Source: Alphaproteobacteria bacterium (GTDB lineage Bacteria; Pseudomonadota; Alphaproteobacteria; Rs-D84). From it: a stretch of DNA of 64,000 bases. The stretch's first letter is position 1; each line of letters begins with the position of its first letter. Under the pieces are notes generated by a model that was given only the letters and a program-made list of their open reading frames with translations, had not been told where the DNA came from and did no database searches. Position numbers and translations under genes: made by a program. Where the stretch lies: the NCBI GenBank assembly GCA_015062525.1, contig SUUM01000004.1:24547-88546 (forward strand), in the 5' to 3' direction. Of the stretch, positions 12,383-64,000 are shown piece by piece.

Positions 12383-12469
12383 GCGGATATGGCGGAATTG
12401 GTAGACGCGCTAGTTTCAGGTACTAGTGGTAGCAATACCTTGGAAGTTCGAGTCTTCTTATCCGCACCA
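12383..12469 (+). tRNA. tRNA-Leu (anticodon CAG), type II with long variable arm
   Basis: Manual cloverleaf: acceptor GCGGATA/TATCCGC, anticodon stem CTAGT/ACTAG, loop TTCAGGT, encoded CCA. Confidence 0.8.
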
Positions 12470-12474
12470 GTTCT

Positions 12475-12550
12475 GGGGTTGTAGCTCAGTTGATAGAGCG
12501 CTACGTTCGCATCGTAGAGGTCGTGGGTTTGAGTCCCATCAGCTCCACCA
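12475..12550 (+). tRNA. tRNA-Ala (anticodon CGC)
   Basis: 76 nt; G3:U70 identity pair, loop TTCGCAT, T-loop TTTGAGT, encoded CCA. Confidence 0.8.
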
Positions 12551-12582
12551 AATTTACTTATCGGCTTTGCCGATTAGGAAAT

Positions 12583-12650
12583 TTGAGTGTCTCGGCGGTG
12601 CTTGCACCGACGGACGGAAAGAACTCAAATTGGAACAAACATATTCGATG
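12583..12650. repeat. hairpin element GTCTCGGCGGTGCTTGCACCGACGGAC (single copy of the 27365 tandem-repeat core)
   Basis: Same ~45-bp motif, including flanking aaatttgagt, as the 52-bp tandem units at 27365-27714. Confidence 0.7.
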
Positions 12651-12681
12651 CCGCGAATTGCGGCATTATTAAAAAGTCTTC

Positions 12682-12768
12682 GGGGATATGGCGGAATGGT
12701 AGACGCTGAGGACTTAAAATCCTTTGGTCATTGCGACCGTGTGGGTTCAAGTCCCACTATCCCCACCA
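12682..12768 (+). tRNA. tRNA-Leu (anticodon TAA), type II
   Basis: Acceptor GGGGATA/TATCCCC, loop CTTAAAA, long variable arm, encoded CCA. Confidence 0.8.
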
Positions 12769-12801
12769 CACATTCGCCCAACAAATGGCGATTTTTTATT
12801 T

Positions 12802-12878
12802 GGATGTGTAGCTCAGTTGGTTAGAGCGCTTCGTTCACATCGAAGAGGTCGTTGGTTCGAGTCCAATCACATCCACCA
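12802..12878 (+). tRNA. tRNA-Val (anticodon CAC)
   Basis: 77 nt; anticodon stem CTTCG/CGAAG, loop TTCACAT, T-loop TTCGAGT, CCA. Confidence 0.8.
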
Positions 12879-27237: not shown

Positions 27238-27322
27238 GCGACCATGGCGGAACTGGTAGACGCGCAGCACTAAGGATGCTGTGGGGCAACCCTTGGGGGT
27301 TCGATTCCCCCTGGTCGCACCA
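27238..27322 (+). tRNA. tRNA-Leu, type II; anticodon reads AAG (A34, unusual) by manual folding
   Basis: Acceptor GCGACCA/TGGTCGC; anticodon stem CAGCA/TGCTG with loop CTAAGGA; 5' half nearly identical to tRNA-Leu(CAG) at 12383. Confidence 0.65.
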
Positions 27323-52622: not shown

Positions 52623-53261
52623 CTACACTGCTTGCGATAACCAATCCGGCATATCAATCAGCGTGAATTTTTCACCATCATATTCCAGTTTGAAATATTC
52701 TGCATTTGGCATTCCGCCACGTGGCCATTTTATATCTGTGAATTGTTTGATTATATTTTTCGCCACCCCCGTATGTGTTGCAATGGCGATTGTTTTGCCG
52801 TCTGAGTTTTTTACGATATCCAATATCGCATTACGAACACGCGCAATAAACATATTATAACTTTCACCGTTTGGTGGGACATAATCGTCATTAGACAGCA
52901 ATGCAAACGGTGCATAAATTACATCACCTGACATATCAATCGGGGTATCTGCAGGGCTATCAGTCAATTTTACAATATGTCCACAAAAATCACCCATATT
53001 CCATTCACGCAAATCACCATTTTGTATAATCTGTTGGTCGCCAGCCACCGCACGTGCTGTATCCAATGCACGCGACAACGACGAAGAATACACAACATCA
53101 AACTTTATACCCGACAATTTTTGTGCCAATGCTTGTGCCTGGGCCACACCATTGGCATTTAATGGCACGTCCAGCCACCCCTGCATACGTTTTTGGATAT
53201 TTGCGTCTGTTTCGCCATGTCGAAAGATATAAAGTATTTTTTTCATGATAGAATTATACAA
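52623..53261 (-). CDS. histidine phosphatase (phosphoglycerate mutase-like) family protein
   Basis: N-terminal RHGETDAN catalytic motif. Confidence 0.7.
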   Translation of the reverse strand: MYNSIMKKILYIFRHGETDANIQKRMQGWLDVPLNANGVAQAQALAQKLSGIKFDVVYSSSLSRALDTARAVAGDQQIIQNGDLREWNMGDFCGHIVKLTDSPADTPIDMSGDVIYAPFALLSNDDYVPPNGESYNMFIARVRNAILDIVKNSDGKTIAIATHTGVAKNIIKQFTDIKWPRGGMPNAEYFKLEYDGEKFTLIDMPDWLSQAV

Positions 53262-53289
53262 TCTAAACCACCAATTATCAACATGTGTT

Positions 53290-53345
53290 ATCTGTTAAAA
53301 TGCTATGTGAGGCGATTTGTGATGCACTAATAAAAAAACCGCCCA
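53290..53345. repeat. partial modular repeat R4 (head motif + terminator)
   Basis: gctatgtgaggcgatttgtgatgca followed by ctaataaaaaaaccgcccaatcgggcgggg. Confidence 0.7.
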
Positions 53346-53361
53346 ATCGGGCGGGGTAATA

Positions 53362-54255
53362 TTACCTGTCGTTTTGGTTGTTATTTTTTGCCCAGGACTT
53401 TTGCATCTGATATTTTATTTCATCAAATCTAAATTCTGCAAAACCAATCAATTCAGACAAAAGCATTTCTTTTTCAGCGCGCGTAAATTTGCGCGGTTTA
53501 TGGGTTGCGACAAAATCCGCACGCATTTGGCGTAATTTTGTAGTCTGTTCCCCTGTTGGCATTTTGTGTGGTGACAAAGCCCTGTCTGTGCGAACAATAT
53601 TATTCTGGCGCAGGTTTATGTACGCCATATCGCCGGGACCTTCGGTATAATTTTGATATTTGAAACCAGTCAGACCAATTGATTCAAAATACAAAATCAT
53701 ACGCTGAAAGAACAAGTTTTCTGCGCTGTGGATATCAAATAATGTTTCCAAACCTAATTCTGTTTGTATTGCTTCCACAGTCATTGTGCTACGCACCGGT
53801 TCACATATCCAATCAAACTGCCACGGCACATCAATGTCCTTATCCAACACCGCTTGTTTTGCTGTTTCAATCTGTTTGCGAAACTCAGATTCGTCATGAA
53901 TATTCAACACACGAATGAAGTCGGCAATTTTATCGCCACACATATACTGAAATAAAACCCCCATAAAGTTCTGCACACTGTGGTCGTTCAGGTCTGGTAT
54001 TTCATCCCAACGCCCAGCCTGCAAATTCACGGGTATTATCTTGGGCTTTGTAATATCAATATTTGGGTCGCGTTTCCATTTTCCTTCGTTCAGATTGGTT
54101 TGTGCATTCACCAATTTGCCAAAGTGTGTCAATGGGCGAAAATAATCAAAATCATAATAAGTGCCATGATACATTGTTAAAGGTTTGCCATCTGTCCCCA
54201 ACAACACCGGCGATAAACAATCGGGCATATCAATAATATATGGAAACGAAACCAT
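53362..54255 (-). CDS. hypothetical protein (297 aa)
   Basis: Start overlaps the GNAT gene stop (operon); no recognisable domain. Confidence 0.5.
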   Translation of the reverse strand: MVSFPYIIDMPDCLSPVLLGTDGKPLTMYHGTYYDFDYFRPLTHFGKLVNAQTNLNEGKWKRDPNIDITKPKIIPVNLQAGRWDEIPDLNDHSVQNFMGVLFQYMCGDKIADFIRVLNIHDESEFRKQIETAKQAVLDKDIDVPWQFDWICEPVRSTMTVEAIQTELGLETLFDIHSAENLFFQRMILYFESIGLTGFKYQNYTEGPGDMAYINLRQNNIVRTDRALSPHKMPTGEQTTKLRQMRADFVATHKPRKFTRAEKEMLLSELIGFAEFRFDEIKYQMQKSWAKNNNQNDR

Positions 54256-54836
54256 TACTTACCCTTATATTCCGACTTTAGTTTCGAAAACAACAGATGA
54301 TTCATATATGTGCCGTCTGGCATTTTATTCGCAGCACGTTCAACACCATCCAGTTGATAACCAGCCTTTTTAATCGAATTTACCGAACAAACATTGCCCT
54401 CCATCGCCTGACGACAGATACGATTTACCCCCAGTTCTTCAAAACCCAATTTATCAATCAGCTTATGCACTTCCTGATTAAAGCCTTGGCCGCGAGCAGA
54501 TTTAATAAACCATACACTGGAACACTGTATCGTATCACAATGGTCTATGTAGTGAAACCGCTGATATCCAACGAATTTGCCATTATGAAAGATATACCAA
54601 ACAACACCGTCTTTATAACCTGCCTCTCGCTGCATCAATTTTAACAGTTCATCGACAGATTCAGGCAAATGATTTTTGTATGATGCTGAATACCGCATAT
54701 ACTGATAATCGGCTGGATTTTCATTTTTCAGCACATCCCACAACATCTGTGCGTTCGCAATAGTTGGCTTTAATACTCGCAACTCTAAACGTTCCGTCTT
54801 AATATCGCGATTAAATATTTCATAAAATTTTTCCAT
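54255..54836 (-). CDS. GNAT family N-acetyltransferase (RimJ/RimL-like)
   Basis: 193 aa with acetyl-CoA-binding motifs (Q/R-x-x-G-x-G/A pattern ARGQGFNQ). Confidence 0.65.
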   Translation of the reverse strand: MEKFYEIFNRDIKTERLELRVLKPTIANAQMLWDVLKNENPADYQYMRYSASYKNHLPESVDELLKLMQREAGYKDGVVWYIFHNGKFVGYQRFHYIDHCDTIQCSSVWFIKSARGQGFNQEVHKLIDKLGFEELGVNRICRQAMEGNVCSVNSIKKAGYQLDGVERAANKMPDGTYMNHLLFSKLKSEYKGK

Positions 54837-54888
54837 CTACTTTGTCCTTTTGTTATCCCATTTATTTTATCACATTTTTTGTTAAAAT

Positions 54889-55195
54889 GCTATGTGATGC
54901 GATGTGTGATGCAGGCGGACCAAATCAACTGTCTGAAAATATTGGAAATCTGGGACTTTGGACTTGCCTTGGCATTCCGACAAAGGCTACCCGTTTAAAA
55001 ACGCACCAAACGGTGCGTTTTTTGTTTGGTTTTCCCTGCCCTGTTGAGTTTTTATGCTTGGCGCGCCACCTGCGCAGGGCGGATGGGTTTTATTTTATTC
55101 GGGGCGTGCAAACGCAACCAAATCCTACCCCACGTCCCCAAAACACCAAAAACTGTGATGCAACAATAAAAATCCGCCCATTTGGGCGGGTTTAT
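54889..55195. repeat. modular repeat copy R5 (terminator-exit variant)
   Basis: Full-length copy ending ctgtgatgcaacaataaaaa + hairpin ccgcccatttgggcgg. Confidence 0.85.
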
Positions 55196-55215
55196 CTTGT
55201 TAAATATTTTCACAA

Positions 55216-55782
55216 TTATTCTGCGTCCTGTTGTTTCTTGCGCAACATTAATTCTGGTTTGCCAGCATTTAATTCTGGCGACACTGCAAAACCCAATCCG
55301 TCTATGAATGATTGAATCTGAGATTTCACTTGCGCCACATCCACATCATCGGCGGTGCAATATTCCACCTCTAAAAACAGCCCCAGATCTGCCACAGTTT
55401 CAAATTCAATTGTATAATCGCCCGCACGGTATGTGCGTTTCAGGTTGTCAATCCGTATCAATTCACGCAACCCCAGCGCATTCATAATATCGCACAAAGT
55501 TGACATATCAGCAACGGTTGTTTCGGATTCATCAGAATACAACCATGTGTCACCGTCAAAATGGTCGTACTTGTACGTGATATAATTTGTGCCGTCTTTT
55601 GCACGTGTGCGACAGCATGCATACAAGCGGCCATTGCTGTCGGGTTGTAAATCTGGGCGCAATGGGTCGTAATAGTATGTATCCACCGTACGTTTATCGC
55701 CCAAGAAGTCAAATTCAGATAATTTACGCAGAACATCTGCTTCGTCTGCGAAAACCTGAACCAAGATTTCAATTTCTTTCAT
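55216..55782 (-). CDS. CYTH-domain protein (triphosphate tunnel metalloenzyme / class IV adenylate-cyclase-like)
   Basis: N-terminal KEIEIL and C-terminal GLFLEVEY motifs typical of CYTH; the Lys of EIExK is replaced. Confidence 0.55.
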   Translation of the reverse strand: MKEIEILVQVFADEADVLRKLSEFDFLGDKRTVDTYYYDPLRPDLQPDSNGRLYACCRTRAKDGTNYITYKYDHFDGDTWLYSDESETTVADMSTLCDIMNALGLRELIRIDNLKRTYRAGDYTIEFETVADLGLFLEVEYCTADDVDVAQVKSQIQSFIDGLGFAVSPELNAGKPELMLRKKQQDAE

Positions 55783-56170
55783 AAGATGCACCCTTTGTGA
55801 TATTCTAAACCGCTTTTTCAGAAATATCAATATTTTCCAATGGAATATAATGTCTGTGACACAAGTAAATCCGCCGGCAGTTGTGGATGGAATAGCAGGT
55901 CCAGGATTGGCACCCAGTGCATATCATCGTGGACACGCAGTTGGATTTCGTATGTGTGGTCCAAAATCTTGTATACGTGCGGAATTACACAAGCAGAAAA
56001 TATTGCGCAACCGATAAGAATCTTTTGTTATCCCGCAATTCAATGCTCACCCAAATTCAACAGATGTCAAAAAGGATTGTATGCTGTGAAAAAATCAGCA
56101 TATATAAACTTTGACAACATAAATATTGTAATCTATACTGATTCTATAACCCCAGCCATAAGGATTTGAA

Positions 56171-57016
56171 ATGCCTGAAAAAAACACCCTGTATGATAAT
56201 TTGCGCAATCCAGTTTCAACAATTGAACGCGGGCAACCAATCCCCAGCGGATTGAACAAGCTGTCTGTGCATGTATGGATTGTAAATGATGCCGGCGAAT
56301 ACCTGTTGCAACAACGCATGGGTACGGCCAAGAAATTTCCAAATATGTGGGGCCAGACTGGTGGCGGGGCAATCGCAGGCGAATCCAGTTGGGATGCGTG
56401 TGTTCGCGAAACAATGGAAGAGTTAGGACTGACACCAGACCCAAAAAAATCTGTATTGGTTGGCACAATTAAGCGACCGATAGATTTCGTTGATGTGTGG
56501 CTAGTGCACAGTAATGTTAAAATTTCTGATTTAAAACCACAGGCAAGCGAGGTGCAATCCGTCAAGTGGGCAACACTGGCGGATATTCAACACATGCAGT
56601 ACGACAATGAATTTATTCCGTCTATTGTTCCAGGGTTTAATATGGTTTTGAATTATCAGAAAATGGTAAATCCCACGCCAGTAAATGCACGTGATTTCTT
56701 GGGCAAATTAGTGCGTGTACAAATGGACAGGCCCCTGGGCAGCAAACATCCAAAACACGGCTTTACATACGAAGTGAATTATGGTTTTATCCCAAACACC
56801 ATATCGGGCGATGGCGAGGAGTTAGATGCGTATGTATTGGGGCCAGATTATCCGTTAAAGGATTTTCTGGGACGATGTATTGCAATCATTCACCGTACTA
56901 ATGACAACGACGATAAACTGATTGTTGTACCGGATGGGTTTGATTTTGCAGATGAATATATTGAACAAAAAACTGCTTTCCAAGAACAGTGGTTCAAGCA
57001 CACGATTATAAGATAA
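56171..57016 (+). CDS. NUDIX hydrolase fused to an inorganic pyrophosphatase-like domain
   Basis: Nudix box GGGAIAGESSWDACVRETMEELGL; C-terminal region matches family I PPase (YEVNYGFIPNTISGDGEELDAYVLG vs E. coli [23 protein letters not shown]). Confidence 0.65.
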   Translation: MPEKNTLYDNLRNPVSTIERGQPIPSGLNKLSVHVWIVNDAGEYLLQQRMGTAKKFPNMWGQTGGGAIAGESSWDACVRETMEELGLTPDPKKSVLVGTIKRPIDFVDVWLVHSNVKISDLKPQASEVQSVKWATLADIQHMQYDNEFIPSIVPGFNMVLNYQKMVNPTPVNARDFLGKLVRVQMDRPLGSKHPKHGFTYEVNYGFIPNTISGDGEELDAYVLGPDYPLKDFLGRCIAIIHRTNDNDDKLIVVPDGFDFADEYIEQKTAFQEQWFKHTIIR

Positions 57017-57035
57017 AATCAAGGGGGGGATAGTC

Positions 57036-57440
57036 ATGCGAACACAAACAACAAGCAGATGTTTAATTGTTCAAGGTGATAGCATCGTTTTATGCAAGCA
57101 CTTGGCTGGCGGTTATTATTTCTTGCCTGGTGGTGGATTGGAAATTGGCGAAACATTGAATCAGTGCATTACACGTGAACTGAATGAAGAAATGGGCGTT
57201 GCAGAATCTGACATCACTATTCATGATGGCATCTTATTGGCTATTGAAAATCAGGGCTATGATTCCAATGGAAATTTCCTGTACGGGATTGAAGTTATTA
57301 AACGTGTGGACATCGATGCAGATGACATAAGCAGCAAAGAGGATTTGATTGGCTTTGAAAAAGTGAAAATTTCTGATTTGCCAGGCACAAAATTATATCC
57401 TGTTGTTATTAAAAATTGGATAATAGAAAGATTCAAATAG
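57036..57440 (+). CDS. NUDIX hydrolase
   Basis: Nudix box GGGLEIGETLNQCITRELNEEMGV. Confidence 0.8.
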   Translation: MRTQTTSRCLIVQGDSIVLCKHLAGGYYFLPGGGLEIGETLNQCITRELNEEMGVAESDITIHDGILLAIENQGYDSNGNFLYGIEVIKRVDIDADDISSKEDLIGFEKVKISDLPGTKLYPVVIKNWIIERFK

Positions 57441-57455
57441 AAGGAACACTTACAA

Positions 57456-58205
57456 ATGACAAGATATTATTGCAGCGGTTTTGACCTTAATAATATTTTT
57501 GGACACGGACTTGGCAAGATGTTCAAAGCCGAACTAGAAGACACAAAGAGCATAGTCTATATTCCTGCTGGTGCGGAAAAAATAGAAAAAGCACGTGCAA
57601 AACATATTCCTAATTTCACAAAGCATTTCAAAAATGTGGGAATAGAATTTGAATCTGTAAATATCATCACGCCCGAACTGTCCCCCGCAGAAGCAAAGGA
57701 TATGATAAAAAATGCAAACTTTGTCATGCTGATGGGTGGTAACCCCTATAAGCAAAAAGACCTTTGTAAAAGTTTGAACATTTTAGACGACTTGAAGAAC
57801 TATAATGGTGTTATGCTGGGGTTTAGTGCGGGTGCTATGATGATGTCTAAATATATCATTATCACGCCTTGTAGTGATGAGTTTCCAAATTTTCATATTG
57901 AGCCAGGTTTAAATCTGGATGGCATTTCAATTTATCCACATAATAACACATCAGACAAGGATTATCCGGAAGAACTTGTTTCTGGTGATGAAGTGTATAA
58001 AAAGTCAGATTTGCTACAGGTTGCCAAAGATTATGGTAAATTCTATCTATTACAGGATAATTTAAGAGAAGATGGCCTAACAGATGTCAGCTTTATCAGA
58101 TGTTCTAATGGTAATGTTGAATTTTATATCGAAAACGATGGCAAGATTTGGTTAGTTGACAAGGATATAACGCTGGTTAAAAATAATGAACCGTTGGACT
58201 TTTGA
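57456..58205 (+). CDS. peptidase S51 (dipeptidase E/cyanophycinase-like) family protein
   Basis: LMGGNPY and GFSAGA (Ser nucleophile) motifs match PepE IVGGGNTF / GWSAGA. Confidence 0.6.
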   Translation: MTRYYCSGFDLNNIFGHGLGKMFKAELEDTKSIVYIPAGAEKIEKARAKHIPNFTKHFKNVGIEFESVNIITPELSPAEAKDMIKNANFVMLMGGNPYKQKDLCKSLNILDDLKNYNGVMLGFSAGAMMMSKYIIITPCSDEFPNFHIEPGLNLDGISIYPHNNTSDKDYPEELVSGDEVYKKSDLLQVAKDYGKFYLLQDNLREDGLTDVSFIRCSNGNVEFYIENDGKIWLVDKDITLVKNNEPLDF

Positions 58206-58524
58206 TAATGATGAATTGTTTGAACTAGTGCGCATAGGTCGAAAACGTGGAACCTGTGGCCGGAATTCTGACGAAGAACCAATGGCAAAAATTGGTGATG
58301 TTCAGGAAATCTATAATAGTCGTGGCGAAACAATACGAATTCAAATTACAGCCGTTCGAAAGTGTCGGTTTTGTGACATTGATGACGCATGGGCAAAAAT
58401 AGAGGGCGAAGGCGACCTGTCCCTGGCATACTGGCGTACGGTTCATATTGAATTTTTTAACAAATACTTTCCCGATTTTCAGGAAACTGATTGGCTGGAA
58501 TTAAACGAGTTTGTGGTTATATAA
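58186..58524 (+). CDS. ASCH (PUA-like) domain protein
   Basis: EGEGDLSLAYWRTVHIEFF pattern typical of the ASCH domain. Confidence 0.55.
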   Translation: MNRWTFDNDELFELVRIGRKRGTCGRNSDEEPMAKIGDVQEIYNSRGETIRIQITAVRKCRFCDIDDAWAKIEGEGDLSLAYWRTVHIEFFNKYFPDFQETDWLELNEFVVI

Positions 58525-59299
58525 CCTCTAATTCAATCCCCACAATGCCGTATTTTGATTCCATTTCGGCATCGTAAAATTTTGATATTGCGGACATCAA
58601 TGCGTTTAGCGATGCGAAACCGGTTCGGGGCATGCTGATTTTTGTGGCCAAGTCTGCAAAACTGCGCGCAATATGCAGGCGAACGATCTTTGCACGAATA
58701 TAATCATTGCGATTTTGCGCATCATATATCAGAATAACGTCGCCGTTGTGCATTCTGCGACGTTTTTCATCATACAGGCACAGTTCAATATCCTTTTCGC
58801 CGGAACGCACCATTTCATAATATTCAGGGCGCAAGCTCATTGAAAATTTACAGTCCAAGTTTGGCAAAATGTGCAGCGCATAAAATTCACGCATATCGTC
58901 AAATGGTGTGATTTTTGGGTTTAATAAGTCGTCGGGGGCAACCCATGCAACCGAAATTTCTTCGGGGCGATTTTCACAGAAATTCAATTCCATATCATCT
59001 GGGACGTGAACGATAAAAAAGTGATGTTCTTCGGCCCATGCGCCACGTTTTTGCGCCCGTTCGGGGGTTGGGTGACGAAATGCATATGGCACCGGAATTT
59101 CAACCACTTGGTCTGCCAGCGCAGATACAGCTTCGCCCAATTCTTCGGTCAGTTCACGCCGCAACGCAGTCAAAAAATCTTCGCCATCATCCAGTCGCCC
59201 GCCAATTGGTCCGTATCCGTTTTCGCCGTATTTTAATAGTGCAACCTGTCCATCACGCACTGGCAAGATATATGCTGAATAACTGATATCTTTTATCAT
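58517..59299 (-). CDS. NUDIX hydrolase fused to a C-terminal ASCH-like domain
   Basis: Nudix box PIGGRLDDGEDFLTALRRELTEELGE; C-terminal YYEMVRSGEKDIELCLYDEKRR..GDVILIY resembles ASCH. Confidence 0.6.
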   Translation of the reverse strand: MIKDISYSAYILPVRDGQVALLKYGENGYGPIGGRLDDGEDFLTALRRELTEELGEAVSALADQVVEIPVPYAFRHPTPERAQKRGAWAEEHHFFIVHVPDDMELNFCENRPEEISVAWVAPDDLLNPKITPFDDMREFYALHILPNLDCKFSMSLRPEYYEMVRSGEKDIELCLYDEKRRRMHNGDVILIYDAQNRNDYIRAKIVRLHIARSFADLATKISMPRTGFASLNALMSAISKFYDAEMESKYGIVGIELEVI

Positions 59300-59301
59300 C
59301 T

Positions 59302-59802
59302 CTATTCCTGGGGTTGTAGGGGTTCAATTGTTTGAATCGTCATATGTATTTCGCCTGATGGCACACTAACGGTTGTTTCATCCCCAACAGATAATCCGAC
59401 CAAGGGATGAACCAGTGGCATATTATATGCGTACTTTTGTTGCGGTATGTCTTCTGCCCCCAATGGCACAATCCCCAGCCTGCATTCTGTTTCTGCGCCA
59501 GTGGTTTCATTTTCTTGGGTCACGCATACCCAGCAATACAGTCCGACTGTTTCTGTGGTTGCCGGCTTATTCCTTGGTACGACAAGCATATTGTCCAGGT
59601 CTGCCAATAAATCAGCGACCAATTTTTCTGTCTGCTTTTCTTCCCTGGTCAAATGTTCATAGGCAAAATTATCATGCCATGTGTTTGTGTCTTCTGTGTA
59701 TGCAGCTGTCTTATCGTTGCGTATCTGGGCCAGTCGCTCTTGCAGCCCTTGAACCTTCCGTTGGGACTTATCAAAGTATTCTTTTGTTACAAAAATTTTC
59801 AT
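59302..59802 (-). CDS. GreA/GreB-domain protein (Rnk-like)
   Basis: C-terminal FKBP-like GreA domain pattern (VGLSVGDETTVSVPSGEIHMTIQTIE). Confidence 0.5.
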   Translation of the reverse strand: MKIFVTKEYFDKSQRKVQGLQERLAQIRNDKTAAYTEDTNTWHDNFAYEHLTREEKQTEKLVADLLADLDNMLVVPRNKPATTETVGLYCWVCVTQENETTGAETECRLGIVPLGAEDIPQQKYAYNMPLVHPLVGLSVGDETTVSVPSGEIHMTIQTIEPLQPQE

Positions 59803-59811
59803 TTCTGTTCC

Positions 59812-60582
59812 TTACAGATTTAATAAAACATCCTTTATTCGTGAACGAACTGCATGGTATTTTGCACGCAAGTCTGCGCCTTGGCCGACCAGATGTTGGC
59901 CAACGGCTGAATTATCAGACACAACCAACAGTGCCGATGCGGGTTTGCCTATAATCTGCATGGCCTTGAAAAAGGTTGCCGTTTCCATTTCTATCAGGGT
60001 TGCGCCCATTTGTCGAAACTCGTCCAAGTGTGCATATTCGCAAGCGATACTGTCGATTGATATTGGTGTCGCATCTTTGGTAGACATACCAACACTTGTG
60101 CAAACTCTCGACAATTCTGCATTTAATTCTGGTGATGAATATGTGCGTTCAAACATCTTTTCTGGACTTAATTTATCATCCAGGTACAATGTTGCGCCAT
60201 TGCCAGATATAGAACATGTTGGAACAATAACATCCCCGATTTCTAGTTCCGGAACCAATGAACCCACCGAGCCAACAAATACAAATTTTGCACAGTTGGC
60301 CGAATGACAGGACAAACAAAAGTCAACTATATTTGGCGCACCAACCTGTAATTGAATATATAAGTATGATTTGCCGTTATGTTTTATACGATGTGATTTT
60401 GAGAATCTGTCTGAATATATTTCAGCAATATCTGTTGTGGCACTATCAAAGACTTTATCAATTGGCCAAGATGGTGCAATAAATACGCAATCAAAATGTT
60501 CGGCAGACGATATTCCATACAGCTGTTGTAACATATCCGAACAAGATATGTTATCCTGACATGATTTGACTATTTTATTCAT
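59812..60582 (-). CDS. PNP/UDP-phosphorylase superfamily nucleosidase/phosphorylase (MTAN-like)
   Basis: FVGSVGSL and IEMETA motifs of the PNP_UDP_1 fold. Confidence 0.6.
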   Translation of the reverse strand: MNKIVKSCQDNISCSDMLQQLYGISSAEHFDCVFIAPSWPIDKVFDSATTDIAEIYSDRFSKSHRIKHNGKSYLYIQLQVGAPNIVDFCLSCHSANCAKFVFVGSVGSLVPELEIGDVIVPTCSISGNGATLYLDDKLSPEKMFERTYSSPELNAELSRVCTSVGMSTKDATPISIDSIACEYAHLDEFRQMGATLIEMETATFFKAMQIIGKPASALLVVSDNSAVGQHLVGQGADLRAKYHAVRSRIKDVLLNL

Positions 60583-61052
60583 TTTGTATCCTTTGATGCA
60601 CTGCGATATGATTTACATTCGGAATATATTTCGCCACGCGCCAATCCCGCCAATGATATACGGGTTGTTGAAACAACGTTCTTCAATTTGGCGACTTCGT
60701 CCAATGTGAAATATTGCATATCGGCACACTTGTCCCCCTCGCAATTACGAATTGTGCCGGTGTATTTTGACACCTCGAAAAAGAAATCAAAAGATTCTGT
60801 GCGACTGGCCAGATTGCTGGTAACGTGTACGCATTTGATGTCGTCGGGCGCAATGTCGATATCCAGTTCTTCTTTGGCCTCACGTATGGCGGCGGCACGT
60901 GCGGTTTCACCTTGTTCAATGTGCCCCGCCGGCAGAACCCACCAACCACCATCATAATTAAAAAAGCCATCATTGCGGAAGAATAATAACACTTTGTCGT
61001 CTTTTTTTATAATCAGGTTTATTACACCCTTGAACATTGCGCGTTCTGCCAT
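60579..61052 (-). CDS. NUDIX hydrolase
   Basis: Nudix box GHIEQGETARAAAIREAKEELDI; 4-bp overlap with the upstream gene. Confidence 0.8.
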   Translation of the reverse strand: MAERAMFKGVINLIIKKDDKVLLFFRNDGFFNYDGGWWVLPAGHIEQGETARAAAIREAKEELDIDIAPDDIKCVHVTSNLASRTESFDFFFEVSKYTGTIRNCEGDKCADMQYFTLDEVAKLKNVVSTTRISLAGLARGEIYSECKSYRSASKDTK

Positions 61053-61317
61053 TTCTTATCCTTTTTCTTATCTTAAACTGCTTTTTACGAAAATTCAATT
61101 ATTTCATATGGCCATTTTTATAATCGATATTTCTAATTCTTCTGGTGTTATACCTGCGTGGTGACTTTTAAGCACAAATGTGTCTGGCCGCTGTTTCAAG
61201 TCATATTTATCAGTTGCCAGCGCAACAAAATCATCAAAAACCGTGATATGATAAGATAAAAAACTTTTTTACACAAAACAGCCAATCGTAAAAAGAAAGC
61301 ACCATTTGGTGCTTTCT

Positions 61318-61832
61318 TTATTTTGTATTTGATTTCATTTTCATCGCTGATTTTACCAAAATATTATCTGGTTTGTTATTTTTTTGCAGGACTTCTGAAA
61401 TCAGATTTATCATAGGTTCACGATGACTGTTCACAAAACTCTTTATCTGATTTTGAATAATTTGCTGGACATCTTTCTCAGAATATTCTTTGAAAAATGC
61501 CGCCGTATTAGTCCAAATACCATATACATTGCCCAAATATAGATTATGCAGGGTTACAGGCTCGCCACGTTTGGCACGAACCCAACCATATTCATTACGC
61601 CCGGCATTAGTAATATGCAATCTCAAAGTCTCTGCTGACTTTACTGTTTTAGGAAACATATCAATATTCAAAGCAAAATTATCTTGAAACTTTACAATTA
61701 TGTTAAAAAATTTAACTGCATAATCATATATTTCTTTACCGTTTGGCGCAGGCCCCAATTTAGATAATTCCTTTTGCATCTGCTCTAGCTGATTCATCGT
61801 TTCAACTTTATTAATAGCTTTTTTAAACATCT
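61318..61832 (-). CDS. hypothetical protein (start at MFKKAINK; the ORF extends further upstream)
   Basis: GGAGA RBS before the internal ATG at 61832; no recognisable domain. Confidence 0.4.
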
Positions 61833-62028
61833 TATCTCCTTTTTTATTTACATTTATTATAACATAAATAAATAAAAAAAAAATAAAATAAAGCAGATAC
61901 AATAAAATCAACATCGGGATGCGAATCAGGACGCCAGATAAAAAAACCTGTACAAACTGAATAAGACTTGAAAACTGCTCTACAGGGCTAAGCGTTATAC
62001 AATTATGCTCAAACAACCGTTTTTTGTT

Positions 62029-62415
62029 TTATCTTGTTTTTTGGCATCTGTTATAGTGTCTGATATTACTAATTTTTTTATTCATTTCACACGCTTCGCT
62101 ATATGATTCCCGGTCGTATACAGGTATTAATACAATTGTTATATTTTGAACACTGTGGCCACAATCGGCTTTTAGCACACCCGATGTATTTTGAACAATT
62201 TTATTTGGTGTTATTTGTTTTGTGTTTATTTTTAGTTTTTTCAACAGTTTTATATTGGCATCAATTGCATTCTTTAAATCATATAAATAATCCTCTACTA
62301 TGGTCCCCCCCAGGGCCAGATTATCTTTTTCAGCTATAAAGAATGGTGGTGTGGTTGAAACAATAAAAATATTGTAATCATTATATATTTCGATTAAATG
62401 CTTCTGTTTTTGCAT
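62029..62415 (-). CDS. hypothetical protein (128 aa)
   Basis: ORF abutting the next gene's stop; no recognisable domain. Confidence 0.4.
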   Translation of the reverse strand: MQKQKHLIEIYNDYNIFIVSTTPPFFIAEKDNLALGGTIVEDYLYDLKNAIDANIKLLKKLKINTKQITPNKIVQNTSGVLKADCGHSVQNITIVLIPVYDRESYSEACEMNKKISNIRHYNRCQKTR

Positions 62416-63930
62416 TTATTTACCTTTTGTTGGTTGGGTGGTTGATGTTAAATCTGATGCACTCACTACTGTATACACGTCTGTTGCTAGACCACTTGCT
62501 TTCGTAGTTGCTTTTACGTCATTTGAAACCGTTTGCACTTGTTTTAGTGTATTTGTCGCTTTCATGCCTTTTATTGCTTTTATAGCATGACTACTGGGAC
62601 TCAGCGAAACCATACTTGCAGCAAAGGCCCCCGTGTCAATAGCATCTTTTATGACTTGATGAAAACTCATCCTATCTACAAGTGTGTTTAATTTGTTTGG
62701 CAGGTCTTTTTCATCTATACACGAGTCTTCAATAGATTTTAACGACTCGTCAAGAATTGCTTGCATATCCGGTGTTGAATTTACCATTGCATATGGAACA
62801 AGGTCATATATTTTATCAACATCGCAATTTTTGCTGTTACATGTGTTACATACATTGCATTTGTCACTGGTGCAAGCTGTTTTACATCCGCACTGATTTA
62901 TTAGATTAAGTATATCAAATCCGCTGGATGTGCCAACATTTTGCTGAATCTTATTCACTTCTGTTAACACTATGGATGTACTTGCTGCAACAATTGCTAA
63001 TGTTCCACCAGAGGCAACTGTGGCGGCAAAAAAACCCAGTGCCACCGCGCCTTCGATCAAAGCATCTACATTTTCTGATGTTTTCGCATCGGGCAAGTCA
63101 CAAATTTGCAGTTTTGGATTGAATCTGGTTTTTACCCCAAATTGGATCCCAAGGGCATTGCATTGTGCTTCACTTACCCCTGTACATCTGCCAGCAACAT
63201 ATTTCCCACCATCTACAAGGCATGCCATTTTTGATTTATCAGCTTGGCTGGTAATGCCACTGAATTCGCTTAGATCATCAAACACAAATTCTATGTTGTA
63301 TGAACCTTTTTCTTTGGTGGTGGTCAGAACACATTCTATTATATCGTCGGATGTACCCTTGACATTTTTACCATAATAAGCTTTTGTCATGGATGCACAC
63401 TCTAAAGATTTAAAATCACTTCCTAATTTAGATTCTACGTATTGACCTATCAGTACCTTGGTTGAATTATCAAATTTTGTTTGATAGCCTTGGAAAATAA
63501 ATGGATCTAGACCGGGATAGGTTTTCACGGACTCATCAGCGGTTTTTACCTTGAAATCAACGTAACAATAATAATTCCTAGTAGGTGTAACTGTACTTCT
63601 ATCTTGTTCATAAGTTGCACTAAAAGCAAATTTGTCAGAAACAACTTTTAGTTTATTACACAGTTCCCCTGTTTTTATTTTTTCACCACCCATACAAACC
63701 GTTTGCTTATTCGGTAAAATTCTGCCGCCGTAAAGTGTGCACAGCCCCTTGAGTGTCCCATATCGCATGTCATCGTCAACAGATTCAACCAGGTCATCAA
63801 ATTCAAATTCGAATACGTATTTGCCATCCGTAGAAGTGCAGGCTAAATAATCATTATTACCATCTTGTCTGTAACGCATCTGGCATTGAATGGTGTATGG
63901 GCCAATTTTTTCATAAACGTATTCTTGCAC
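62416..63930 (-). CDS. hypothetical Cys-rich protein (504 aa) with one predicted TM segment
   Basis: Cys cluster CGCKTACTSDKCNVCNTCNSKNC; hydrophobic stretch ALGFFAATVASGGTLAIVAAS. Confidence 0.45.
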   Translation of the reverse strand: MQEYVYEKIGPYTIQCQMRYRQDGNNDYLACTSTDGKYVFEFEFDDLVESVDDDMRYGTLKGLCTLYGGRILPNKQTVCMGGEKIKTGELCNKLKVVSDKFAFSATYEQDRSTVTPTRNYYCYVDFKVKTADESVKTYPGLDPFIFQGYQTKFDNSTKVLIGQYVESKLGSDFKSLECASMTKAYYGKNVKGTSDDIIECVLTTTKEKGSYNIEFVFDDLSEFSGITSQADKSKMACLVDGGKYVAGRCTGVSEAQCNALGIQFGVKTRFNPKLQICDLPDAKTSENVDALIEGAVALGFFAATVASGGTLAIVAASTSIVLTEVNKIQQNVGTSSGFDILNLINQCGCKTACTSDKCNVCNTCNSKNCDVDKIYDLVPYAMVNSTPDMQAILDESLKSIEDSCIDEKDLPNKLNTLVDRMSFHQVIKDAIDTGAFAASMVSLSPSSHAIKAIKGMKATNTLKQVQTVSNDVKATTKASGLATDVYTVVSASDLTSTTQPTKGK

Positions 63931-64000
63931 TAACTCAACAGCAGGTTGATATTGAGTATTAACTTCCCTGAATATTTTGACACATTCACCCTTCGCCCCA

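What the first reader, a model, noticed from the sequence alone, without database searches (positions are those of the whole stretch)
56171..57016. NUDIX - inorganic-pyrophosphatase-like domain fusion
The N-terminal ~150 aa carry a canonical Nudix box. The C-terminal ~110 aa align with the family I pyrophosphatase core (YEVNYGFIPNTISGDGEELDAYVLG versus E. coli [23 protein letters not shown]), but several metal-binding Asp residues are altered (DGEELDAY in place of DGDPVDV). This is either a coupled two-step hydrolase or a degenerate PPase fold repurposed as a substrate-binding module. I do not recall this as a standard architecture.
Basis: partly seen in the sequence, partly recalled or inferred. 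Interest (0 to 1): 0.6.

Follow-up and report, generated by a model that had tools for sequence, protein, structure and literature searches.

The report
Nudix hydrolase fused to mini-pyrophosphatase
This is a real gene from a gut alphaproteobacterium that joins a Nudix nucleotide hydrolase to a stripped-down but well-conserved inorganic-pyrophosphatase-like domain; the pairing recurs widely and was noted by computational work in 2017, but nobody has tested it biochemically.

Summary
ORF 56171-57016 (+, 281 aa) encodes an N-terminal Nudix domain with a perfect Nudix box (aa 65-86). It also encodes a C-terminal module of about 112 aa that passes Pfam's family I pyrophosphatase threshold, and its confident model matches only family I PPases in the PDB.

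It is not a frameshift artefact. The same 280-282-aa architecture recurs in about 90 of the best 120 protein clusters, in gut Alphaproteobacteria (Candidatus Enterousia-like, the window's source) and in Clostridia.

The PPase part is not degenerate. It is a minimal form that lacks the beta2-beta3 hairpin and the C-terminal ~33 residues. It keeps Tyr51, Tyr55, Asp65, Asp70, Asp102 and Lys104 equivalents almost invariantly (Asp67 becomes Glu), and it evolves more slowly than the Nudix half.

The module is mobile: it occurs alone, N-terminal or C-terminal. Its commonest partner is Nudix, in both domain orders and as an operon neighbour.

Iyer et al. [quoted passage not shown] The most likely mechanism is a coupled reaction: the Nudix half cleaves a nucleotide polyphosphate and the mini-PPase hydrolyses the released PPi. 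An alternative, non-PPi substrate is not excluded. This is a new member of a known but uncharacterised kind, of modest interest.

The parts
56111..56139 (+). sigma-70-like promoter (TTGACA, 17-nt spacer, TATACT) upstream of the fusion gene
   Evidence: Best-scoring site in 55700-59400, 11 of 12 matches. It lies in the leader that is nearly identical in L013. This is a consensus match only and its function has not been shown.
56160..56164 (+). ribosome-binding site AAGGA, 6 nt before the ATG
   Evidence: Read directly from the sequence. Conserved in L013.
56171..57016 (+). complete ORF of 281 aa plus stop codon: Nudix / mini-PPase fusion protein
   Evidence: Homologues of 280-283 aa with both Pfam domains. 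AlphaFold2 model with pLDDT 93.6 and pTM 0.85.
56171..56665 (+). N-terminal Nudix hydrolase domain (aa 1-165) of the YfcD/IDI/DR0079-like structural type, including the C-terminal linker helix (aa 150-166)
   Evidence: PF00293 at E 4.8e-15. Best PDB fold matches are 2fkb YfcD (TMt 0.84), 2o5f DR0079 and IDI. Secondary structure.
56363..56428 (+). Nudix box GGAIAGESSWDACVRETMEELG (aa 65-86)
   Evidence: Regex match. G65, G70, E71, R79, E80, E83 and E84 are invariant in 28 fusion proteins.
56174..56680 (+). in-frame segment encoding the whole Nudix domain, absent from close relatives that carry a stand-alone 118-aa mini-PPase behind the same promoter and ATG
   Evidence: DNA alignment of the window with L013. 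ORFs of L013. The same stand-alone state in L021-L024.
56678..57013 (+). minimal family I pyrophosphatase-like (InPase) domain, aa 170-281
   Evidence: PF00719 at 37.1 bits for the domain alone. PDB sequence hits. Domain model pLDDT 95. Top 50 PDB fold hits are all family I PPases, TMq 0.6-0.69.
56810..56827 (+). DGEELD motif (aa 214-219), equivalent to E. coli PPase D65-G-D67-P-V-D70
   Evidence: Alignments. Conservation in 124 representatives: D214 in 124, E216 in 106, D219 in 123.
56900..56917 (+). NDNDDK motif (aa 244-249), equivalent to the E. coli D97...D102-A-K104 loop shortened by two residues
   Evidence: Conservation in 124 representatives: D245 in 117, D or E at 247 in 123, K249 in 124.
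57036..57440 (+). second, separate Nudix hydrolase gene (134 aa), 19 nt downstream; likely the same operon
   Evidence: PF00293 at E 3e-9. A Nudix gene directly follows the fusion or mini-PPase gene in L001, L002-L005, L012, L013, L021, L023 and L024.
57456..58205 (+). Peptidase_S51 family gene (249 aa), present in the operon only in some relatives
   Evidence: PF03575 at E 1.2e-12. Present in L013 and L021, absent in L001 and L006.
58186..58524 (+). ASCH-domain gene (112 aa), last gene of the putative operon
   Evidence: PF04266 at E 6.5e-16. An ASCH gene follows Nudix in the Enterousia-like and clostridial cassettes.

Best explanation
The gene encodes a genuine bifunctional enzyme.

The N-terminal Nudix domain has an intact Nudix box and a YfcD/DR0079-like fold. 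It hydrolyses a nucleoside polyphosphate derivative, most simply an NTP or dNTP, possibly a modified one, to NMP plus PPi.

The C-terminal domain is a minimal family I pyrophosphatase of about 110 aa. It has the OB-like barrel but lacks the beta2-beta3 hairpin and the last ~33 residues. It keeps the metal-binding Asp cluster, and it hydrolyses the released PPi to 2 Pi. That would make the reaction irreversible and remove an inhibitory product.

Shown here: the domain identities, the intact motifs, the strong conservation, and the recurrent Nudix linkage.
Inferred: catalytic activity of the mini-PPase, PPi as its substrate, and the identity of the Nudix substrate.
For: - Both domains exceed Pfam gathering scores.
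- The Nudix box is perfect and invariant in 28 homologues.
- The fold of each half is confirmed with confident models.
- Equivalents of E. coli Y51, Y55, D65, D70, D102 and K104 are present, and D67 becomes E. These positions are conserved in 117-124 of 124 diverse domain representatives, with E216 in 106 of 124.
- The mini-PPase half is more conserved than the Nudix half: 63% against 32% identity to distant fusions.
- Nudix is the commonest fusion partner, in 20 of 150 representatives, and in both domain orders, 13 and 7.
- Nudix is also the commonest operon neighbour, 16 of 115. MazG, another PPi-releasing NTP pyrophosphohydrolase, also appears as a neighbour.
- When the fused Nudix domain is absent (L013), the mini-PPase stays intact and a Nudix gene still follows it.
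- Iyer et al. 2017 proposed PPi clearance as one role of these domains.
Against: - No biochemistry exists for any member of this family.
- Three canonical PPi-binding or metal-site residues (E31, R43, K142) have no confidently aligned equivalent, and the register of the first strand is ambiguous.
- The general-base position D67 is Glu here, and is K, G, M or A in a few relatives.
- The family has its own invariant residues (R187, H193, Y221, R242, E272). These could re-create a PPi site or could define a different substrate.
- Many partners, such as GNAT and P-loop kinases, do not release PPi.
- The Nudix subtype (YfcD/DR0079-like) has no established NTP-to-NMP-plus-PPi activity that I could cite.
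Confidence: 0.55

Rival explanations
1. The mini-PPase is catalytically active, but its substrate is not free PPi. It would cleave a phosphoanhydride in a nucleotide-like or other organic di- or polyphosphate, for example an NDP or NTP terminus, a Nudix product that still carries a diphosphate, or a signalling or modified nucleotide. Under this reading the fusion is a two-step nucleotide-processing enzyme of a different kind, possibly part of a modified-nucleotide clean-up route together with the ASCH and GNAT neighbours.
For: - Iyer et al. 2017 list this as their first proposal.
- E31, R43 and K142 equivalents are lost, and family-specific invariant residues appear: R187, H193, Y221, R242 and E272.
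- The partner repertoire includes GNAT, AAA_33/AAA_18 kinases, 2H phosphoesterases and radical SAM enzymes, which do not release PPi.
- ASCH co-occurs repeatedly, and some ASCH proteins are N4-acetylcytidine amidohydrolases (PMC6972931; operon data).
Against: - The retained residues are exactly those that bind the metals and the leaving phosphate in PPi hydrolysis.
- The closest sequence and fold relatives are all bona fide PPases.
- Nothing in the sequence points to a base- or ribose-binding pocket. I could not inspect model coordinates to check this.
Confidence: 0.3
2. The C-terminal domain is a non-catalytic PPase-fold module. It would bind PPi, a phosphate or a nucleotide ligand, or mediate oligomerisation, and so regulate or target the Nudix domain.
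For: - The domain is truncated, covering about 112 of about 175 residues.
- D67 is replaced and E31, R43 and K142 are not recovered.
Against: - The acidic metal ligands, K249 and both Tyr residues are conserved in at least 117 of 124 representatives. That pattern is typical of an active site.
- The module persists alone as a 110-118-aa protein in many genomes, and in close relatives that lack the fused Nudix domain.
- It is fused to many unrelated enzymes at either end, which fits an autonomous catalytic unit better than a dedicated regulator.
Confidence: 0.1
3. The fusion is an artefact: a frameshift, a lost stop codon or an assembly chimera joining two adjacent genes.
For: - Stand-alone versions of both halves exist in close relatives.
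Against: - The ORF is continuous.
- About 90 of the best 120 clusters have the same 280-283-aa two-domain architecture, from many independent assemblies and two phyla.
- The difference from the stand-alone form is a clean in-frame 489-nt indel behind the same ATG.
- The two-domain model is confident, with a structured linker helix.
Confidence: 0.01

Closest known systems
NUDIX- and GNAT-associated InPase domains described by Iyer, Burroughs, Anand, de Souza and Aravind 2017 (J Bacteriol 199:e00245-17; example Lachnospiraceae WP_051639333.1)
   Same: [quoted passage not shown] The proposed roles are the same: clearing PPi or processing nucleotide-like phosphoesters. In the window a GNAT gene lies 1.3 kb upstream and Nudix genes flank the fusion.
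   Different: The paper gives only a computational mention with no biochemistry or structure. Its main clade, the phage polyvalent-protein InPase (Pfam PF18823), does not match the window domain: 12.2 bits against a cut-off of 26.8. Phage examples are also structurally more distant than canonical PPases. I did not retrieve WP_051639333.1 itself for comparison.
Canonical family I soluble inorganic pyrophosphatase (e.g. E. coli Ppa; PDB 1i40, 1faj)
   Same: The same barrel fold, TMq about 0.66. It shares the YxxNYG, DGD/ExxD and D-x-K motifs, with equivalents of Y51, Y55, D65, D70, D102 and K104.
   Different: About 112 aa instead of about 175. It has no beta2-beta3 hairpin and no C-terminal strand and helix. 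D67 becomes E and D97 becomes N (with D245 adjacent). E31, R43 and K142 are not recovered. It has its own invariant R187, H193, Y221, R242 and E272. It fails NCBIfam equivalog cut-offs (27-29 bits against 200). It occurs as a fusion module.
Stand-alone 110-118-aa 'inorganic diphosphatase' proteins in RefSeq (e.g. WP_010890780.1 on C. acetobutylicum pSOL1; WP_257064876.1 on Priestia megaterium plasmids; MBR3782324.1 in Alphaproteobacteria MAGs)
   Same: The same mini-PPase family: 48-54% identity to the pSOL1 and Priestia proteins, and 93-97% identity to the MAG proteins.
   Different: They are not fused to a Nudix domain. Their name is an automatic annotation, not a tested function.
E. coli YfcD (PDB 2fkb), Deinococcus DR0079 (2o5f) and type 1 IPP isomerase: Nudix-fold proteins with an N-terminal beta extension
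   Same: They are the best structural matches of the N-terminal half, TMt 0.84, 0.79 and 0.67, and the best NCBIfam sequence hits.
   Different: Identity is only 17-24%, and all NCBIfam equivalog cut-offs are missed by a wide margin (36 against 127 bits for IDI, 27 against 152 for YfcD). Unlike IDI, the window protein has a full Nudix box, so it should be a hydrolase and not an isomerase.

Membership tests
Nudix hydrolase superfamily (PF00293) | Nudix box GX5EX7REUXEEXGU | tested here: met
   GGAIAGESSWDACVRETMEELG at aa 65-86. The key G, E, R-E and E-E positions are invariant in 28 homologues.
Nudix hydrolase superfamily (PF00293) | Profile match above the curated threshold, and the alpha/beta/alpha Nudix fold | tested here: met
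   56.2 bits against a cut-off of 21.1. The model matches YfcD, DR0079, IDI, MutT, RppH and others at Foldseek probability 1.00.
Nudix hydrolase superfamily (PF00293) | Hydrolysis of a nucleoside diphosphate linked to X | not testable with these tools
   An enzyme assay is required, and the substrate is unknown.
Family I soluble inorganic pyrophosphatase (PF00719) | Profile match above Pfam's gathering score | tested here: met
   34.5 bits for the full protein and 37.1 bits for the domain alone, against a cut-off of 23.5. Only profile positions 31-104 of 153 are covered.
Family I soluble inorganic pyrophosphatase (PF00719) | PPase barrel fold | tested here: met
   Domain model pLDDT 95. The top 50 PDB hits are all family I PPases, TMq 0.6-0.69 and TMt 0.37-0.52. 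The fold is incomplete: no beta2-beta3 hairpin and no C-terminal strand and helix (secondary structure; description).
Family I soluble inorganic pyrophosphatase (PF00719) | PROSITE-type signature D-[SGDN]-D-[PE]-[LIVMF]-D-[LIVMGAC] (pattern quoted from memory) | tested here: not met
   The sequence is D-G-E-E-L-D-A, with Glu instead of Asp at the third position. E216 occurs in 106 of 124 relatives.
Family I soluble inorganic pyrophosphatase (PF00719) | Full set of about 14 conserved active-site residues (E. coli E20, K29, E31, R43, Y51, Y55, D65, D67, D70, D97, D102, K104, Y141, K142; list from established literature, quoted from memory) | tested here: not met
   Y51, Y55, D65, D70, D102 and K104 are identical. 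D67 becomes E and D97 becomes N, with D245 adjacent. Y141 is probably W274 (aromatic in 121 of 124). E20 and K29 may correspond to D186 and K195 in one register. E31, R43 and K142 have no confident equivalent.
Family I soluble inorganic pyrophosphatase (PF00719) | NCBIfam equivalog score for inorganic diphosphatase | tested here: not met
   NF002317: 27-29 bits against a cut-off of 200. NF002578: 22-25 bits against 246.
Family I soluble inorganic pyrophosphatase (PF00719) | Mg2+-dependent hydrolysis of PPi | not testable with these tools
   An enzyme assay is required.
Polyvalent-protein InPase clade (Pfam PF18823; Iyer et al. 2017) | Profile match above the gathering score | tested here: not met
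   E 0.17, 12.2 bits against a cut-off of 26.8. Only 6 of 150 family representatives hit PF18823.
Polyvalent-protein InPase clade (Pfam PF18823; Iyer et al. 2017) | [quoted passage not shown] | tested here: met
   Only 15 residues and no hairpin lie between strand aa 180-187 and the NYGF strand aa 203-206 in both models. The canonical enzyme has about 32 residues there (sequence).
Polyvalent-protein InPase clade (Pfam PF18823; Iyer et al. 2017) | Location in a phage or conjugative-element polyvalent protein | tested here: not met
   This is a 281-aa chromosomal two-domain protein. There is no phage DNA similarity, no PHROG for the domain, and only 7 weak phage tblastn hits.
Type 1 isopentenyl-diphosphate isomerase | Equivalog score | tested here: not met
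   NF002995: 36.3 bits against a cut-off of 127. TIGR02150: 26.7 bits against 105.8. The full Nudix box indicates a hydrolase.

The most novel reading that the evidence does not exclude
The 110-aa mini-PPase is not a PPi-clearing accessory. It would be a distinct, uncharacterised phosphohydrolase family whose own invariant residues (R187, H193, Y221, R242, E272) define a new substrate, such as a nucleotide-linked or modified-nucleotide pyrophosphate. Together with the recurrent Nudix, ASCH and GNAT partners it would form a dedicated pathway for destroying or salvaging modified nucleotides (for example N4-acylated cytidine nucleotides), or nucleotides used in phage-host conflict.
Probability: 0.25. 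Interest if true: 0.55.

Novelty: new member of a known kind. Interest (0 to 1): 0.3.

Why it matters
- The mini-PPase family is large: 988 clusters at 50% identity with E <= 1e-10, and matches in at least 553 stretches of species-representative genomes.
- It is present in cultured organisms such as C. acetobutylicum, Priestia and Listeria, where it is annotated automatically as 'inorganic diphosphatase'.
- It has no solved structure and no assay.
- If it does hydrolyse PPi, it would be the smallest known version of the family I PPase catalytic core. It would also show which of the 14 'essential' residues are dispensable.
- The repeated, bidirectional fusions with Nudix domains are a textbook Rosetta-stone signal of a coupled reaction, and a simple assay could test it.
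- For genome annotation the practical message is that this architecture is real and recurrent. It should not be split or treated as a frameshift.

Tried and rejected
- Frameshift or chimera: rejected (continuous ORF, conserved length, clean in-frame indel).
- Degenerate domain: rejected on conservation.
- Riboswitch or RNA element in the 330-nt leader: Rfam found only tRNAs in the window.
- Phage or prophage origin: no megablast match to phages. PHROGs has no family for the domain. The 7 phage tblastn hits are weak.
- Known defence system: PADLOC gave only a generic Nudix candidate, PDC-S07.
- Membership in Pfam InPase PF18823: below threshold.
- Resolving the register of the first beta-strand: HMMER gave two incompatible weak alignments, and hhalign aligned only the core. 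This stays unresolved because model coordinates cannot be read with these tools.
- AFDB fold search for database names: that library was unavailable.
- Single-sequence phmmer for neighbours missed the divergent clostridial Nudix and ASCH genes, so I used Pfam on called ORFs instead.
- Close orthology of the downstream Nudix and ASCH genes between the Enterousia and clostridial cassettes: not supported. Nudix is 28% identical over the box only, and ASCH is not significant. The 'conserved operon' therefore holds at the domain-family level only.
- Further literature searches found no biochemical study of Nudix-PPase fusions.
Full report
**Observation**

An AAGGA ribosome-binding site lies 6 nt upstream. 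The best sigma-70-like site in the region (TTGACA, 17-nt spacer, TATACT; 11 of 12 matches) is at 56111-56139.

Pfam places a NUDIX domain at aa 30-147 (E 4.8e-15, 56 bits). It places a Pyrophosphatase (PF00719) match at aa 197-266 (E 2.2e-8, 34.5 bits, cut-off 23.5), which covers only profile positions 31-103 of 153. The Nudix box GGAIAGESSWDACVRETMEELG (aa 65-86) is canonical.

The C-terminal 116 aa alone hit 37 solved family I PPases by sequence, best E 2.7e-7, and score 37.1 bits on PF00719. So both parts of the observation are real and far beyond chance.

Two details need correcting:
- Within DGEELD only the middle Asp is changed. The alignment to E. coli is D65 to D214, D67 to E216 and D70 to D219.
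- The E. coli motif reads YPCNYGY, not YPANYGY.

**Structure**

An AlphaFold2 model of the whole protein, built from 28 homologues, is confident (pLDDT 93.6, pTM 0.85). It shows a structured helix (aa 150-166) joining the domains.

Against the PDB, the N-terminal half matches E. coli YfcD best (2fkb, TMt 0.84), then type 1 IPP isomerases and Deinococcus DR0079. It is therefore a Nudix fold with the N-terminal beta extension typical of that subgroup. Unlike IDI, it has a full hydrolase Nudix box.

The C-terminal module modelled alone (pLDDT 95) gives family I PPases for all of its top 50 PDB matches. TM-scores are 0.6-0.69 normalised to the query and 0.37-0.52 normalised to the target. The fold is right but about a third of a canonical PPase is missing. 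No solved structure of such a short form turned up.

**Anatomy of the mini-PPase**

The core alignment to E. coli PPase is reproducible with HMMER and hhalign:

| E. coli PPase | Window protein |
|---|---|
| Y51 | Y200 |
| N54-Y55-G56 | N203-Y204-G205 |
| D65 | D214 |
| D67 | E216 |
| D70 | D219 |
| D97 | N244 (D245 adjacent) |
| D102 | D247 |
| K104 | K249 |

The D97-D102 loop is two residues shorter. Only 15 residues and no hairpin lie between the first strand (aa 180-187) and the NYGF strand. This matches the hairpin-less InPase form described by Iyer et al. 2017. After the helix carrying FQEQWF (aromatic at position 274 in 121 of 124 relatives) only six residues remain, so the canonical C-terminal strand and helix are absent.

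The register of the first strand is ambiguous:
- One weak alignment puts IDRPxxSxHPK on IEIPxxSxPIK, which gives E20 to D186 and K29 to K195.
- Another puts MDRP on VDRF, which gives D42 and R43 to D186 and R187.

I could not resolve this without model coordinates. E31 and K142 have no equivalent in either register, and R43 has one only in the second.

**Degenerate or active?**

I extracted the module from the 150 best representatives of an exhaustive search of 1.84 billion cluster representatives. Across the 124 full-length domains, counts out of 124 are:

| Position | Count | Position | Count |
|---|---|---|---|
| D186 | 122 | Y221 | 123 |
| R187 | 121 | R242 | 124 |
| H193 | 118 | D245 | 117 |
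| Y200 | 123 | D or E at 247 | 123 |
| N203 | 123 | D248 | 108 |
| Y204 | 124 | K249 | 124 |
| D214 | 124 | F270 | 122 |
| E216 | 106 | E272 | 124 |
| D219 | 123 | | |

In the 72 distant fusion proteins the mini-PPase half is 55-69% identical to the window (mean 63%). The Nudix half is only 28-37% identical (mean 32%). A decaying domain would not be the slower-evolving half. I conclude that the metal-binding catalytic core is under strong selection, so the module is very probably an enzyme. This is an inference.

**How common it is, and who has it**

A search of 5.8 billion proteins returned 1898 hits. By my count, 91 of the best 120 clusters carry both PF00293 and PF00719, at 271-287 aa plus one 412-aa protein with an extra N-terminal Nudix domain.

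The 85-91% identical full-length matches are MAGs labelled Candidatus Enterousia sp. or Alphaproteobacteria bacterium, from human and animal guts. This identifies the window's source. The 39-44% identical full-length fusions are in gut Clostridia, for example Clostridium sp. CAG:780.

The module alone defines 988 clusters at E <= 1e-10. Among the top 150 it is stand-alone in 34, C-terminal in 60, N-terminal in 33, central in 1 and partial in 22.

Fusion partners among those 150:
- NUDIX: 20
- GNAT: at least 14
- AAA_33/AAA_18 kinases: about 5
- 2H phosphoesterases: 3
- radical SAM, NTPase_1 and Zeta-toxin: 2 each

Nudix lies N-terminal to the module in 13 representatives and C-terminal in 7, and some proteins carry two Nudix domains. 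That implies several independent fusions.

Among 115 putative operon neighbours in 81 loci, NUDIX is again first (16). It is followed by Peptidase_S51, ASCH and GNAT (6 each), AAA_18 (5), HD (3), and MazG and HAD (2 each).

RefSeq annotates stand-alone 110-113-aa versions as 'inorganic diphosphatase' on plasmids of cultured bacteria. Examples are WP_010890780.1 on C. acetobutylicum pSOL1 and Priestia megaterium plasmids, where a GNAT gene sits next door.

**Not a frameshift, and a natural domain-deletion experiment**

Close relatives (L013, L021-L024) carry the same operon: mini-PPase, then Nudix, (S51), ASCH. In them the first gene is a 118-aa stand-alone mini-PPase.

A DNA alignment shows that the window and L013 share a nearly identical leader, promoter-like site, RBS and ATG. 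Directly after the ATG the window has 507 nt where L013 has 18 nt. This is an in-frame difference of 163 codons that encodes the whole Nudix domain. The sequences rejoin at VNARDFLGK.

The window's Nudix half is 61-94% identical to 35 stand-alone Nudix clusters. One of these was checked (L086): it sits beside GNAT and ASCH genes with no mini-PPase nearby.

So both halves are autonomous modules that are joined and separated on short evolutionary time scales. The mini-PPase is retained intact without the fused Nudix domain. This argues against an artefact and against a dedicated non-catalytic appendage.

**Context in the window**

The fusion is the first gene of a likely operon:

| Coordinates | Strand | Gene |
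|---|---|---|
| 56171-57016 | + | Nudix / mini-PPase fusion |
| 57036-57440 | + | Nudix, 134 aa |
| 57456-58205 | + | Peptidase_S51 |
| 58186-58524 | + | ASCH |
| 58517-59299 | - | NUDIX-ASCH fusion, convergent |

Around it lie other nucleotide-related genes:

| Coordinates | Gene |
|---|---|
| 52623-53261 | His_Phos_1 |
| 54255-54836 | GNAT |
| 55216-55830 | CYTH, divergent |
| 59302-59802 | GreA/GreB-C-like |
| 59812-60582 | PNP_UDP_1 |
| 60579-61052 | another NUDIX |

The upstream genes are not conserved even in a 97% identical relative (L001).

In Clostridia, the order fusion, Nudix, ASCH recurs with overlapping stop and start codons, next to type I R-M and other variable genes. Those Nudix and ASCH genes are only distant relatives of the window's. 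The linkage is therefore at the level of domain families.

**Mechanism**

The best-supported model is a coupled two-step hydrolase. The Nudix domain cleaves a nucleoside polyphosphate, most simply an NTP or dNTP and perhaps a non-canonical one, to NMP plus PPi. The mini-PPase then converts PPi to 2 Pi.

Shown:
- Intact catalytic motifs in both halves.
- Strong selection on the PPase core.
- Repeated Nudix/mini-PPase fusions in both orders, and operon linkage.
- Occasional linkage to MazG, another enzyme that releases PPi.

Inferred: catalysis, PPi as the substrate, and the nature of the Nudix substrate.

The main rival (about 0.3) is that the module acts on an organic or nucleotide-linked pyrophosphate rather than free PPi. 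Three points favour it. Three canonical PPi-site residues are lost, the family has its own invariant residues, and partners such as GNAT and kinases do not release PPi. This was Iyer et al.'s first suggestion.

A non-catalytic role (about 0.1) and an artefact (about 0.01) are unlikely.

**Comparison with what is known, and novelty**

Iyer et al. 2017 (PMC5512222) describe type I InPase domains lacking the beta-hairpin in phage polyvalent proteins. [quoted passage not shown]

The window domain does not reach the Pfam InPase (PF18823) threshold, and it is not in a polyvalent protein. Phage portal and polyvalent proteins are only distant structural matches. It belongs to the 'related' cellular group.

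It is a PPase-fold homologue. It fails several defining tests of a canonical family I PPase: the signature pattern, the full residue set, the equivalog scores and the length. It is best described as a minimal PPase-like module, not as 'an inorganic pyrophosphatase'.

I found no biochemical or structural study of this group.

**Verdict**

The feature is real. It is a new alphaproteobacterial member of an already noted but experimentally untouched architecture. Interest is modest (0.3). Its main value is as an easily testable case of coupled hydrolysis and of a minimal PPase catalytic core.

Noticed in passing
window 56174-56680 versus L013 4010-4027: Presence/absence polymorphism of an entire protein domain. 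Behind the same promoter, RBS and ATG, the window has 507 nt encoding the Nudix domain where close relatives (L013, L021-L024) have 18 nt. This gives a 281-aa fusion in one case and a 118-aa stand-alone mini-PPase in the other, in an otherwise identical operon.
   Followed up: yes
window 52623-61052: An unusually dense cluster of nucleotide- and phosphate-handling genes: His_Phos_1, GNAT, CYTH, four Nudix-domain genes (56171, 57036, 58517(-) and 60579(-)), two ASCH domains and a PNP_UDP_1 phosphorylase. It looks like a 'house-cleaning' or modified-nucleotide salvage island. G+C is slightly lower (0.41) than in most of the upstream window (0.42-0.47).
   Followed up: partly
window 58517-59299 (-): A second domain fusion, NUDIX plus ASCH (260 aa). 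It is convergent with the stand-alone ASCH gene 58186-58524 and overlaps it by 8 nt. It is conserved at high similarity in L001, L006, L013 and L021-L024. Some ASCH proteins are N4-acetylcytidine amidohydrolases (PMC6972931), so this could act on modified cytidine nucleotides.
   Followed up: partly
window 57456-58205 (+): A Peptidase_S51 gene sits between the Nudix and ASCH genes in the window, L013 and L021. It is absent from that position in L001, L006 and L011, so the operon content varies. S51 was also among the commoner neighbours of mini-PPase genes overall (6 of 115).
   Followed up: partly
window 53362-54255 (-): A 297-aa ORF whose first ~40 residues give a weak, sub-threshold match to the ART-PolyVal ADP-ribosyltransferase domain of phage polyvalent proteins (E 0.0039, 18 bits against a cut-off of 31). 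Its stop codon overlaps the start codon of the GNAT gene by one base (both genes on the - strand).
   Followed up: no
L002 5663-5971, L003 5345-5653, L004 751-1059, L005 5663-5971: In the clostridial versions a conserved 102-aa ORF with no Pfam match lies about 30 nt upstream of the fusion gene. In L002-L004 the cassette sits beside type I R-M genes, and each contig also carries one or two of RloB/AAA_21, DUF4238, DUF3800 and DUF6414, a defence-island-like setting. L005 has housekeeping neighbours instead.
   Followed up: no
window 59302-59802 (-): A small 166-aa protein with only a GreA/GreB C-terminal domain match (E 1.6e-9). It is conserved next to the Nudix-ASCH gene in L013 and present in L024.
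   Followed up: no
window 61318-63930 (-): Three consecutive ORFs (232, 128 and 504 aa) with no Pfam match, in the lowest-G+C part of the window (0.368 for 60001-64000).
   Followed up: no
window 12383-12878 (+): A cluster of four tRNA genes: Leu-CAG, Ala-CGC, Leu-TAA and Val-CAC. Further single tRNAs are at 27238 (Leu-AAG) and 49005 (Thr-TGT).
   Followed up: no
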